Below, piece after piece: positions 11,533 through 42,865 of a stretch of 64,000 bases of DNA. The stretch comes from Planctomycetota bacterium (lineage in GTDB: Bacteria; Planctomycetota; UBA1135; UBA2386). Within the stretch, counting starts at the first letter, position 1. Each line of letters opens with the position of its first letter. The position numbers and the translations under genes were made by a program. The DNA is taken from the NCBI GenBank assembly GCA_947501605.1, contig CANMWZ010000002.1, positions 192,001 to 256,000 on the forward strand, written 5' to 3'. The notes under the pieces are model-generated. The model was not told the DNA's origin. It searched no databases and saw only the letters and a program-made list of their open reading frames with translations.

Positions 11533-14577
<3,045 letters not shown>

Positions 14578-14749
14578 CGGAATACCTGCGATCTGCGGGC
14601 AGCGTGCCCGCGCGGCGACCAGAAATGCACAACCAGCGATCCGCGGTCGGCCGATCGCCATCGGCCGCGGACCTGCGCCACCACGCTCACCTTCGCCACG
14701 TTTGCCGAGCCCGGGTCGTGCGCCTCTGAGGCACGAGACCGCGATCGGT

Positions 14750-15019
14750 TCAGCAGCTCGGTGCAAAAACGCGGTCAGGCGCGCGCGAGGGCGGCAAGCC
14801 CCCGGCGGTGCGATCGAGCCAGCGGGGAATCCGGCGCGTCATGGACGGTCGCACCGGCGCGGCACTGCGATCCTCGACTCCGGCCCAACGAATGCCGACT
14901 GTGCTAGTCGCGGCCGGGGCTTCGACACAGCAGGCGACCGCCGACGGGACTCCGTCCATGCATCGGACCAGGGCGGGGCCACCCACCATCAGGACCAGTG
15001 CCAGGAGGACGCCGATCAC
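14750..15019 (-). CDS. secA upstream ORF, candidate SecM-like translation-arrest peptide
   Basis: 89 aa with a hydrophobic N-terminus (IGVLLALVLMVGG) and C-terminal GGLPPSRAPD. The GTG start overlaps the upstream stop (GTGA), with SD GAGAGG. Confidence 0.65.
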   Translation of the reverse strand: MIGVLLALVLMVGGPALVRCMDGVPSAVACCVEAPAATSTVGIRWAGVEDRSAAPVRPSMTRRIPRWLDRTAGGLPPSRAPDRVFAPSC

Positions 15020-15861
15020 AGCCGCACCTCTCGCGATCGCAGAACCCGATCGACCATCTCATAGAGCAGCGCTTCTTGGAACGGCTTGGCCAGAAACCCG
15101 TCGGCCATCCGAATGTCGGCCAGTGACACTTGCGCCGCACTGGCGAGCAGCACCGGAATGCTCCTCGTCGCCGGGTTGCTGCGCAGTTGCGCGATCACTT
15201 GCAGGCCGTCCATCTCAGGTAGTTCGTAGTCCAACAGCACCAGGTTAGGCAACAAGTGTGCAGCAGTTGCGGCCGCGATGCCGCCGCCGTGAACCTTGAC
15301 GGTGCGAAACCCTCGGGCTTGGAGCAACAACTCGATGGCCTCAGCCAAGTCGACCTCGTCGTCGACGATCAGAACCGTACCGCGGTCAAGACTCGCAGCG
15401 CCCGACCCGGCACAGCGCGCCTCGACGCTTCGGCGCAAGCAGGCAGCAGTGTCGAGGCCATGGCGGTCAAAGGCGGTTTCGATCTGTTGCTTCAGATCGC
15501 GGTTGAAGCGCCGCACCGCCATCCAAGACTCGTAGTCCGGGAAATCGGGCTTGATCTCCATCTGGTCATGGCTGTCGACCGCGAAAAAGAACTCACCAGG
15601 CACGATGTGTTCCTGCAGCACCAACTTCATGAACGGGTAGTTGCGATTGCCCAAACGCAGGCTGTAGCGCACGCAGGGATGCCCCGCCTCGGGCTCGATG
15701 CACTCCTTCTGAAACATCGCCAGCACACTCTCCGGGTCCTTGCTGGCCATGGCACTGAAGTCTGGGTCACGCCGCGCACGAGAGTGCGTGCCGTAGGCAA
15801 TCTCTTGATACAGCGCGATAGCGGTCGCCACGGTCTCCGAGCGCAAGGCGGTGAGTTTCAT
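15016..15861 (-). CDS. Response regulator: unknown N-terminal domain plus C-terminal receiver domain
   Basis: REC motifs LIVDDE, LLDYELPEMDG, FLAKPF. The ATG overlaps the pyrD stop (ATGA). Confidence 0.85.
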   Translation of the reverse strand: MKLTALRSETVATAIALYQEIAYGTHSRARRDPDFSAMASKDPESVLAMFQKECIEPEAGHPCVRYSLRLGNRNYPFMKLVLQEHIVPGEFFFAVDSHDQMEIKPDFPDYESWMAVRRFNRDLKQQIETAFDRHGLDTAACLRRSVEARCAGSGAASLDRGTVLIVDDEVDLAEAIELLLQARGFRTVKVHGGGIAAATAAHLLPNLVLLDYELPEMDGLQVIAQLRSNPATRSIPVLLASAAQVSLADIRMADGFLAKPFQEALLYEMVDRVLRSREVRL

Positions 15862-41347: not shown

Positions 41348-42865
41348 TCAGCCAGCGGACAGCGAGCCTGGAATGCGCAGATACGCGCGCAGTCCCTGCC
41401 GACCACCCTCGCGACCGAAGCCTGACTCCTGGAAGCCACCAAACGGCGCCGCCGCATCGAAACGGTTGAAGGTGTTGTTCCAGATCACCCCGGCGCGCAG
41501 GCGTTCGGCGAGCCACAAGATGCGCGCACCCTTGTCGGTCCAGATGCCAGCCGACAGGCCGTAGCTCGTGTTGTTGGCCTTCTCGACCGCTTCCTCGGGC
41601 GTGCGAAAGGTCATCACCGACAGCACCGGGCCGAAGATCTCCTCGCGCGCAACACGGTGGCTCGAGGCGACGCCGGTGAACACCGACGGCGGGAACCAGT
41701 AGCCCTTGCTCGGCAGCACACACGGCGGTTGGAACAGACTGGCGCCTTCGTCGACACCGCTCTGCACCATTTCTTGGATGCGCGACAACTGGGCCTTGCT
41801 GTTGATCGCGCCCATGTCGGTGTTCTTGTCCATCGGGTCACCGGTCCGGATGCGCGCCATGCGCTGCCGCAACTTCGCCACGAACAGGTCGTGGATGCTC
41901 TCCTGCAACAACAAGCGCGAGCCGGCGCAGCAGACGTGACCTTGGTTGAAGAAGATGCCGCGCACGACGCCGTCGACGGCCTGGTCGATAGCCGCGTCCT
42001 CGAACACGACATGGGCTGCCTTGCCGCCCAGTTCGAGCGTCAGCTCCTTGCCGGACCCAGCGAGCTGTTGCTGGATCCGCTTGCCTACCTGCGTACTGCC
42101 CGTGAACGCGACTTTGGCGAGGTCCGGGTGCGAGACCAGTGCGGCACCGGTACGGCCATCGCCGGTCACGATGTTGACGACGCCCGGCGGCAGGCCGGCC
42201 TGCTGGCAGATCTCCGCCAGCCGCAGCGCCGTGAGCGGCGTCGTCTCGGCGGGCTTCAGCACGACGGTGTTGCCGCAGGCCAATGCGGGCGCCAGCTTCC
42301 ACGCCGCCATCAGCAGCGGGAAGTTCCACGGGATCACCTGTCCAACCACACCGAGCGGCTGCGGCTTGGCGCCGGGGAAGGCCAGCTCGAGCTTGTCGGC
42401 CCATCCCGCGTGGTAGAAAAAATGCTGCGCCGCGAGTGGCACGTCCACATCGCGCGACTCGCGGATCGGCTTGCCGCCGTCCATGGTCTCGAGGCAGGCG
42501 AGTTCGCGGGCCCGCTCCTGGATGATGCGAGCGATCCGGTAGAGGTAGCGGGCACGCGCCTCCCCGGAGAGCTTGCTCCACGCCGGGAATGCGGTCTTGG
42601 CCGCTTGCACCGCGCTGTCGACGTCCGCCGCTGAGCCCTGCGCAACCTCGCTGAGTGGTTGCTCCGTGGCCGGGTTGGTGGTCGCGAAGTACTCGCCTTC
42701 GGCCGGGGCCCGGAACTCGCCGCCGACGAACAGCTCGTAGCGTTTGGCGACGACGAAGTGGTCGGAGCCCTCCTTCGATGGTGCGTAGTTCCACACCCCG
42801 TCGAATCGGAGTTCGGGACCTGGGACAGCGGTCACGTGCGCCTGCTTCTCATCGTGGTCGACCAT
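41348..42865 (-). CDS. Aldehyde dehydrogenase (full length)
   Basis: IPWNFPLLM, FTGST, LELGGK, NQGHVCCAGSRL, EEIFGPV, PFGGFQESG. Confidence 0.96.
   Translation of the reverse strand: MVDHDEKQAHVTAVPGPELRFDGVWNYAPSKEGSDHFVVAKRYELFVGGEFRAPAEGEYFATTNPATEQPLSEVAQGSAADVDSAVQAAKTAFPAWSKLSGEARARYLYRIARIIQERARELACLETMDGGKPIRESRDVDVPLAAQHFFYHAGWADKLELAFPGAKPQPLGVVGQVIPWNFPLLMAAWKLAPALACGNTVVLKPAETTPLTALRLAEICQQAGLPPGVVNIVTGDGRTGAALVSHPDLAKVAFTGSTQVGKRIQQQLAGSGKELTLELGGKAAHVVFEDAAIDQAVDGVVRGIFFNQGHVCCAGSRLLLQESIHDLFVAKLRQRMARIRTGDPMDKNTDMGAINSKAQLSRIQEMVQSGVDEGASLFQPPCVLPSKGYWFPPSVFTGVASSHRVAREEIFGPVLSVMTFRTPEEAVEKANNTSYGLSAGIWTDKGARILWLAERLRAGVIWNNTFNRFDAAAPFGGFQESGFGREGGRQGLRAYLRIPGSLSAG

What the first reader, a model, noticed from the sequence alone, without database searches (positions are those of the whole stretch)
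14578..15019. Candidate SecM-like ribosome-arrest peptide upstream of secA
Seen: an 89-aa ORF directly upstream of and co-oriented with secA. It has its own SD (GAGAGG), a GTG start overlapping the previous stop, an N-terminal hydrophobic signal-like segment, a spacer, and C-terminal WLDRTAGGLPPSRAPD, with RAP ending 9 codons before the stop. The 172-nt gap to secA holds two perfect hairpins: 14648-14667 (cggccgat/atcggccg) and 14595-14611 (gcgggca/tgcccgc), the second just upstream of the weak secA SD. Known: SecM (RAGP), ApdA/ApdP (RAPP) and ApcA (RAPG) are force-sensing arrest peptides with this signal-spacer-motif layout, encoded upstream of translocation genes. Inference: this is an independent monitor of Sec activity with a variant LPPxRAP(D) motif that controls secA translation.
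Basis: partly seen in the sequence, partly recalled or inferred. Interest (0 to 1): 0.85.

Follow-up and report, generated by a model that had tools for sequence, protein, structure and literature searches.

The report
Ribosome-stalling peptide candidate before secA
A small gene just ahead of the protein-export motor gene secA in uncultured planctomycetes has the conserved layout of a peptide that stalls its own ribosome to sense export; the group was already listed in a 2024 survey but never tested, and how it would control secA is still open.

Summary
The 89-aa ORF is real, and the arrest-peptide reading is well supported. It is not new: Fujiwara et al. 2024 list the group in a supplement as uA_RQH_UBA2386 (3 rows, not among the peptides tested). 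This scan also noted it before on other DNA (e1-7085056).

- The layout (hydrophobic core, spacer, C-terminal LPxx-R[AG]P) stands before secA in 77 of 77 same-family loci with enough upstream DNA, 9 of 10 in a second family, and 0 of 37 in other families sampled.
- All 74 sense residues after RAP fall in the set that permits ApcA arrest; 12 loci have a stop there.
- The core-to-Pro distance is held at 70 ± 2.7 aa, although the spacer sequence is not conserved.

Folding tests found no SecM-type unmasking in the window or across the family, and 62 of 81 same-family secA starts lack an SD. Stalling itself is untested.

Verdict: very likely a RAP-x secretion monitor of a listed, untested group. 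Its output to secA is unresolved.

The parts
14750..15019 (-). uORF, 89 aa, candidate RAP-x arrest peptide (uA_RQH_UBA2386 group)
   Evidence: no Pfam match; no relevant NCBIfam match among 47 members scanned
15027..15032 (-). SD of the uORF (GAGAGG), inside the 3' end of the response-regulator gene
   Evidence: an SD of -4.5 kcal/mol or better precedes 60 of 70 uORF starts that could be placed
15016..15019 (-). GTGA start-stop overlap (translational coupling to the upstream gene, inferred)
   Evidence: the same overlap in 66 of 86 loci
14984..15019 (-). hydrophobic signal-like core MIGVLLALVLMV
   Evidence: no signal-peptide predictor was available; the paper's rows carry SignalP or DeepTMHMM signal calls
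14804..14983 (-). spacer: length conserved, sequence not (its last ~10 codons carry the weak PRxRxV pattern)
   Evidence: 69 aa from core end to the RAP proline here; family median 70, SD 2.67; spacer identity 0.23 against 0.22 for shuffles
14774..14803 (-). candidate arrest motif GGLPPS-RAP-D: Arg 14785-14783, predicted P-site Pro 14779-14777, predicted A-site Asp 14776-14774
   Evidence: the P- and A-site assignment is inferred from ApcA and the RQH family
14578..14749 (-). 172-nt gap between uORF and secA
   Evidence: 86-303 nt across the family; no sigma-70-like promoter or terminator match in the gap; no Rfam match
14648..14667 (-). hairpin 1 (8 bp); not seen in the 4 congeners
   Evidence: by eye
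14595..14611 (-). hairpin 2 (7 bp); kept in the 5 genus members, does not cover the SD-like site
14584..14587 (-). weak SD-like AGGT of secA (-4.0 kcal/mol against the anti-SD)
11533..14577 (-). secA, 1014 aa, with C-terminal SEC-C; the only full-length match in the genome
15016..15861 (-). upstream gene, 281 aa, with a C-terminal response-regulator receiver domain

Best explanation
The ORF encodes a secretion-monitoring arrest peptide of the ApcA-like RAP-x kind. (1) It is translated by coupling to the upstream gene (inferred from the conserved overlap and SD). (2) The ribosome stalls with Pro of RAP in the P-site and Asp in the A-site, helped by L and P at -4/-3 and by a PRxRxV stretch in the tunnel (inferred; conservation shown, stalling not). 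(3) The N-terminal signal-like core, about 70 residues away, is outside the tunnel and engages SecA/SecYEG, whose pull releases the stall; poor export prolongs it (inferred from SecM and VemP; the fixed distance is shown). (4) The stalled ribosome raises SecA output in cis from the same transcript (inferred from the invariant position). The route of step 4 is not identified. My split, given the monitor reading: about 0.25 direct SecM-type masking of the start region that equilibrium folding missed; about 0.5 another RNA-level route (co-transcriptional or long-range refolding, read-through, or mRNA protection); about 0.25 mainly holding the secA mRNA at the translocon.
For: Layout in 77 of 77 family-f1 loci with at least 500 nt upstream, 9 of 10 f7 loci and 0 of 37 loci of other families. 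Selection acts on the peptide: R, A and P codons are 97-100% fixed at positions 1-2 but 50-69% at position 3, with all six Arg codons used; R[AG]P itself was the search criterion. The residue after RAP was not a criterion, yet 74 of 74 sense residues are T, D, G, S, C, P or A. All lie in the 8-residue set that keeps ApcA arrest (G, N, T, S, D, A, P, C; PMC7897499 passages). Background for that set is 0.53 in the spacers and 0.47 after RAP in long ORFs of this genome, and the next position is 48 of 74. At least 20 changes at this site on a quick tree. Spacer 65-76 aa in 75 of 77 while its sequence identity equals shuffles, and the N-terminal extension varies from -2 to 45 aa. Start overlaps the upstream stop in 66 of 86 loci. 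One profile match at E < 1e-4 in G000, at this place. Listed as a candidate monitor in PMC10987492 supplement rows 849, 850, 866.
Against: No stalling or regulation experiment exists for this group in what I read. Most RAPP-like motifs in ordinary proteins do not stall (PMC10987492). No SecM-type unmasking was found: blocking the stall region changed the opening energy of the secA start by -0.8 kcal/mol in the window (5 of 12 shuffles as low or lower) and by -2 or more in 12 of 86 loci against 29 of 267 shuffles, whereas E. coli gave -4.1, beyond all 12 shuffles. Direct pairing of the stall region with the start was not enriched. Only 19 of 81 f1 secA starts have an SD, and the stall site lies 101-348 nt from the start against 82 in E. 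coli. Loci are kin, so the counts overstate independence.
Confidence: 0.75

Rival explanations
1. It stalls and is released by export, but it does not set the amount of SecA. It tethers the secA mRNA near the translocon so that SecA is made in place, a role reported for SecM.
For: No folding switch found. In the 58 SD-less f1 loci the stall region pairs with the secA start less than shuffles do (median z +0.5 to +0.8). Gap length varies 86-303 nt. The SecM precedent is Nakatogawa 2005 (PMC548944), of which I saw only the title in a reference list; the rest is recalled.
Against: All monitors tested so far act through an SD-masking hairpin (PMC10987492). My test was calibrated after the fact on one control and ignores kinetics. 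In family f7 all 10 secA starts have an SD, and Leu codons just before RAP are anti-SD-like CUC/CUU in 9 of 11 cases against 58 of 140 (p 0.012).
Confidence: 0.18
2. It is an arrest peptide that senses something other than Sec pulling, such as membrane insertion by YidC or a ligand, or a constitutive pause.
For: A narrow spacer is the trait that Fujiwara 2024 tie to YidC monitors (MifM median 54); Sec monitors mostly vary widely (section read). RAP-type peptides also sense copper (CruR).
Against: The downstream gene is secA. The 10 residues before the core are net positive in 59 of 77 loci, as for N-in signals (the window's own peptide has no n-region). Short SecM variants have a median spacer of 71 by that paper's measure. 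f7 spacers vary 69-118. No conserved ligand residues in the spacer.
Confidence: 0.12
3. It is a small exported or membrane peptide with its own function, and LPxxRAP is a binding or processing motif that does not stall the ribosome.
For: Stalling is untested, and most RAPP-like motifs do not stall.
Against: The residue after RAP follows the ApcA A-site rule, including a stop in 12 of 86 loci; the mature region has no conserved sequence; the position before secA is invariant.
Confidence: 0.08
4. The stall controls transcription: it blocks Rho loading in the gap, as TnaC does before tnaA (mechanism recalled).
For: The stall is at or near the stop, the gap is long, two Rho RNA-binding domain matches lie in the genome, and the gap is C-rich in 37 of 77 f1 loci.
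Against: The window's own gap is G-rich (skew -0.09), 22 of 77 gaps are G-rich, and 35% of 671 ordinary co-directional gaps in this genome pass the same C-rich cut.
Confidence: 0.1

Closest known systems
uA_RQH_UBA2386, one order-level group of the RQH family (Fujiwara et al. 2024, PMC10987492, supplement file MOESM5)
   Same: uORF of secA in Planctomycetota class UBA1135, with signal, spacer and RAP-x. The three listed peptides read, by eye, the same as the peptides of my loci L125 (family f1), L170 and L171 (family f7). L125 aligns with the window's peptide.
   Different: The paper lists 3 members (RAPA, RAPG, RAPS), does not name the group in its main text, and did not test it. Here there are 86 members, mostly RAP-T (33), RAP-D (23) and RAP-stop (12).
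ApcA (Actinobacteria, before yidC2; Sakiyama et al. 2021, PMC7897499)
   Same: RAP with a non-proline A-site residue; the same permitted A-site set; a Pro just before the Arg (Pro101 in ApcA; 51 of 86 here).
   Different: ApcA has a transmembrane segment and precedes yidC. Natural ApcA has mostly Gly or Ser at the A-site and does not tolerate RGP, which 3 of 86 members here carry. Homology outside RAP was not tested.
SecM (E. coli RAGP; short Pasteurellaceae variants)
   Same: Signal, spacer and arrest motif directly before secA; the short variants have a similar spacer (median 71 by the paper's measure).
   Different: No FxxxxWIxxxxGIRAGP motif; no Pfam or NCBIfam match; stall site about twice as far from the secA start; no SD-masking hairpin detected.
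uA_LPPP (Phycisphaerales, UBA1161, WQYP01; PMC10987492)
   Same: Planctomycetota, before secA, LPP near the C-terminus; LPPP directly precedes RAP in 20 of 77 f1 members.
   Different: The window has LPPS. The 7 uA_LPPP rows I saw (of 50) have no RAP after LPPP. Stalling there is at the third codon of LPPP.
ApdA / ApdP (RAPP, before secDF)
   Same: RAP core with a signal and spacer.
   Different: They need Pro at the A-site; only 2 of 86 members here have RAPP.

Membership tests
RQH family / uA_RQH_UBA2386 | small uORF of unknown function directly upstream of secA, secDF or yidC | tested here: met
RQH family / uA_RQH_UBA2386 | N-terminal secretion signal or TM segment | tested here: met
   hydropathy only (11-mer mean 3.24); no SignalP or TMHMM run; the window's peptide lacks a charged n-region
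RQH family / uA_RQH_UBA2386 | conserved C-terminal RAPP-like motif (RAPD is on the paper's query list) | tested here: met
RQH family / uA_RQH_UBA2386 | spacer over 30 aa between signal and motif | tested here: met
   69 aa
RQH family / uA_RQH_UBA2386 | lineage: order UBA2386 of GTDB r202 | tested here: met
   inferred: row 849 (family UBA2386) reads as the peptide of L125, whose genome the tool places in the window's family; compared by eye
Monitoring substrates (SecM, MifM, VemP type) | sequence-dependent ribosome stalling at the motif | not testable with these tools
   indirect support only: A-site rule
Monitoring substrates (SecM, MifM, VemP type) | release of the stall by the translocation machinery | not testable with these tools
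   fixed core-to-Pro distance is indirect support
Monitoring substrates (SecM, MifM, VemP type) | hairpin that masks the downstream SD and is opened by the stalled ribosome | tested here: not met
   in silico only, method calibrated after the fact on E. coli alone; weak hint in family f7
Monitoring substrates (SecM, MifM, VemP type) | co-transcription with the regulated gene | tested here: inconclusive
   contigs of RNA libraries bridge upstream gene, uORF, gap and secA start in 3 of 4 runs laid, 2 studies; contigs do not show one transcript; no promoter match in the gap
SecM proper | FxxxxWIxxxxGIRAGP motif or match to a SecM model | tested here: not met
ApdA / ApdP | Pro at the A-site (RAPP) | tested here: not met
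   Asp in the window; Pro in 2 of 86
uA_LPPP | LPPP or xPPP within the last 15 residues | tested here: not met
   window LPPS; LPPP in 20 and xPPP in 23 of 77 f1 members
ApcA | upstream of yidC in Actinobacteria | tested here: not met
   upstream of secA in Planctomycetota

The most novel reading that the evidence does not exclude
In family UBA2386 the monitor has lost the SecM-type output. secA mostly starts without an SD, 100-350 nt from the stall, and the stall region does not pair with the start. The peptide would then control SecA by a route not yet shown for any secretion monitor (read-through, mRNA protection, long-range refolding, or membrane tethering alone). It would use a sequence-free 70-residue ruler that spans ribosome tunnel, SecA and SecY, and one RAP core that arrests either elongation (T, D, G, S, C) or termination (stop).
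Probability: 0.3. Interest if true: 0.7.

Novelty: new member of a known kind. Interest (0 to 1): 0.36.

Why it matters
The kind is known and the group is listed, so the existence of this uORF would not surprise a specialist. The value lies in the set of 86 natural variants. It shows that evolution has kept the residue after RAP inside the set found by mutagenesis of the unrelated ApcA, which argues for one shared non-proline arrest chemistry. It gives natural RAP-T, RAP-D and RAP-stop pairs for asking how one motif blocks both elongation and termination. It offers a tight natural ruler for the distance at which a Sec-type signal can pull on an arrested chain. If secA control here runs without SD masking, it would be a new output for secretion monitors.

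Tried and rejected
(ribosome-footprint opening energy, 86 loci) was null, but the E. coli secM-secA control failed under the same settings (7.6 to 7.5 kcal/mol), so I discard it. I recalibrated on that one control and repeated the test.

One search tested only the window P-24..P+6 on the family, where the E. coli control does not score (z 0.03). One search added P-3..P+27, where it does (p 0.047): still null.

Consensus folding of six subgroups gave no structure shared between groups that joins the stall site to the secA start. The f7 consensus does join them, but rests on a poor alignment (5 of 31 pairs kept in all 7 sequences).

Rho-type control: not supported for the window. Promoter and terminator scan: none in the gap (weak for this lineage). 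Rfam: one chance hit outside the gap.

The CGCATTCC repeat before secA in part of the family also occurs at 9-45 other ATG-proximal places per genome; the reversed-pattern control is not adequate, so I draw nothing from it.

The genome has no assembled 16S; the anti-SD was read from 5 relatives. ESM Atlas gave only unnamed clusters at 0.93 and a low-confidence model: a lead only. The careful tree did not finish; the count of A-site changes comes from FastTree on short alignments, which inflates it. Profile hits outside f1 were all at E > 0.001 and partial. The genome-contig scan returned mostly distant secA genes. Run X4 did not bridge the gap in the pieces listed. No structure or complex prediction was run. 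The published peptides were compared by eye only.

Full report
OBSERVATION. The ORF runs 15019->14750 on the minus strand (89 aa, GTG). Its start overlaps the stop of a 281-aa gene with a receiver domain, and GAGAGG lies at 15032-15027. It begins MIGVLLALVLMV and ends GGLPPS-RAP-DRVFAPSC. secA (1014 aa) starts at 14577, 172 nt later. On the same strand lie lspA, pyrD and a dksA/traR-like gene (weak Pfam hit, below cut-off) upstream, and a Kdo transferase gene downstream. Both hairpins are perfect, and two such occur in 8 of 1000 shuffles of the gap, but the whole region folds no better than shuffles.

CONSERVATION. Of 91 genomes of the window's family (f1), 81 gave a secA N-terminus, and I read the DNA upstream of all 81. 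Four end at a contig edge; 3 of these still show the motif. The other 77 of 77, from 38 genera, carry an ORF with R[AG]P in its last 25 residues and a hydrophobic core upstream. Outside f1 I read 48 loci: all 10 matches of family f7 and a hand-picked 38 of the other families (131 non-f1 matches). The layout is in 9 of 10 f7 loci; the tenth has RGPT but no core by my cut-off. It is in 0 of 37 other loci with at least 500 nt upstream. The f1 consensus is P-R-x-R-x-V-x-x-x-G-L-P-P-P-R-A-P-[TD*], with P at -3 in 73, L at -4 in 64 and G at -5 in 55 of 77. Third codon positions of R, A and P vary freely, so the peptide is selected, not the DNA. The start overlaps the upstream stop as ATGA/GTGA/TTGA in 66 of 86 loci; in 4 the offset differs, in 6 no start lay near, and in 10 my rule did not find the upstream stop. 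An SD precedes 60 of the 70 starts placed. The anti-SD CCUCCU is intact in 5 of 5 relatives.

EVIDENCE FOR ARREST. The residue after RAP was not part of my search rule. It is T 33, D 23, stop 12, G 7, S 5, C 3, P 2, A 1. Sakiyama 2021 (PMC7897499; passages and one section read) found that ApcA keeps arrest with G, N, T, S, D, A, P or C at this A-site codon and loses it with the other twelve. All 74 sense residues here fall in the permitted eight. That set makes up 53% of spacer residues and 47% of residues after RAP in long ORFs of this genome, and 48 of 74 at the next position. The loci are kin. A quick tree needs at least 20 changes at this site (likely inflated); counting only six changes among seven states gives about 0.02.

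THE RULER. Yet spacer identity (0.23) equals that of shuffled spacers (0.22) over 600 random pairs, the N-terminal extension varies from -2 to 45 residues, and the gap to secA from 86 to 303 nt. In f7 the distance is 69-118. Fujiwara 2024 report that Sec-type monitors mostly have long, variable spacers, YidC monitors short and narrow ones (MifM 54), and short SecM variants a median of 71 (section read). Their measure starts at the end of the predicted signal and gives 63 for row 849 where mine gives 70. My inference, from recalled dimensions, is that about 70 residues is what it takes to span the tunnel, SecA and the SecY hairpin.

OUTPUT TO secA: NOT FOUND. Hairpin 2 is kept in the 5 genus members but ends 7 nt before the weak AGGT; hairpin 1 is not seen in the others. 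Only 19 of 81 f1 secA starts have an SD of -4.5 kcal/mol or better (window -4.0), against 10 of 10 in f7. SD-less starts are common in this genome: 38% of about 3500 roughly called genes have an SD. My first footprint test failed its E. coli control. After recalibration, E. coli gave -4.1 kcal/mol, beyond all 12 shuffles; the window gave -0.8 (5 of 12 shuffles as low or lower); and the family gave -2 or lower in 12 of 86 loci against 29 of 267 shuffles. Direct pairing of the stall region with the start was not enriched in any group, and was depleted in the 58 SD-less loci. In f7 there is a weak hint of an anti-SD in the Leu codons before RAP (9 of 11 against 58 of 140, p 0.012, noticed after the fact), and 4 of 9 loci reach -2. 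A Rho-type reading does not fit the window's G-rich gap. Contigs of RNA libraries bridge the upstream gene, uORF, gap and secA start in runs X1, X2 and X3 (3 of 4 laid, 2 studies). This fits co-transcription but does not show it. These tests are equilibrium folding in GC-rich RNA with one control, so they lower the SecM-type model without excluding it.

WHAT IS KNOWN. Fujiwara et al. 2024 (PMC10987492; I read parts 1-2 of 9, sections 12 and 14, passages, and rows of supplement file MOESM5) screened over 30,000 genomes, with RAPD, RAPT and RAP* among the query motifs. The supplement lists three rows as uA_RQH_UBA2386. By eye their peptides read the same as those of my loci L125 (f1), L170 and L171 (f7). 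The group is not named in the main text and is not among the eleven RQH peptides tested. A full-text search for UBA2386 gave two papers with unrelated listings. A search for arrest peptide + planctomycet + secA + upstream gave four listings: I read parts of PMC10987492 and PMC12992588 (passages and one section) and saw only the listings of the other two. PMC11470409 (VemP) was seen as passages and not used. The library lacks most subscription papers. The supplementary figures of PMC10987492 were too large to open, and I did not open the supplements of PMC12992588; they may say more about this group.

VERDICT. It works like ApcA at the peptidyl-transferase centre and like SecM in position. It is a member of the listed, untested uA_RQH_UBA2386 group. 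It is not SecM, ApdA/P, ApcA or uA_LPPP by their defining features. Confidence in a Sec-monitoring arrest peptide is about 0.75. The A-site rule, the fixed ruler and the missing SD switch did not appear in what I read and make the group a good test set. Interest 0.36.

Noticed in passing
L216:849-1271 (G000:C26, about 41348-41770, +): A second RAP-type uORF in this genome: a 140-aa DUF2946 protein (Pfam E 5e-10) with an HDHDCALC motif, ending LPPARAPPVALA. It precedes a long ORF with no Pfam match and a ZnuA-family gene. It looks like a CruR-type metal-responsive arrest peptide before a metal-uptake operon (the link of DUF2946 to CruR is recalled).
   Followed up: partly
L004-L009, L109-L149 (many), last 40 nt before the secA ATG: In a large part of family f1 the secA start has no SD and is preceded by a pyrimidine-rich, weakly paired tract, often with CGCATTCC repeats and ending CCGTC-ATG. 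Role unknown; the motif also occurs elsewhere in these genomes.
   Followed up: partly
L168-L177 (family f7), codons -5/-4 before RAP: Leu codons are CUC/CUU in 9 of 11 cases and could form an anti-SD; all 10 f7 secA starts have an SD and shorter gaps, so f7 may keep a SecM-type switch that f1 lost.
   Followed up: partly
L002, L029 (and VVGC in L017, L108), uORF N-terminus: The core ends in a lipobox-like VIGC/VVGC in the 4 congeners but GG in the window; lspA lies upstream on the same strand. Not conserved outside the genus, so probably incidental (lipobox pattern recalled).
   Followed up: no
G000:C7:116696-116908 and C3:249793-250023: Two separate matches to the Rho RNA-binding domain, each in a long open frame.
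   Followed up: no
window 15016-15861 (-): The upstream gene has an N-terminal part of about 150 aa with no Pfam match before its receiver domain. It sits before secA across most of the order, also in families without the uORF, where it lies 19-180 nt from secA.
   Followed up: no
window 11533-11870 (-): SecA has a long Pro/Gln/Ala-rich linker with several polyproline runs before the SEC-C motif.
   Followed up: no
L211 (G023, 16S 3' end): Both 16S copies read GGATTA in place of GGATCA just before the anti-SD.
   Followed up: no
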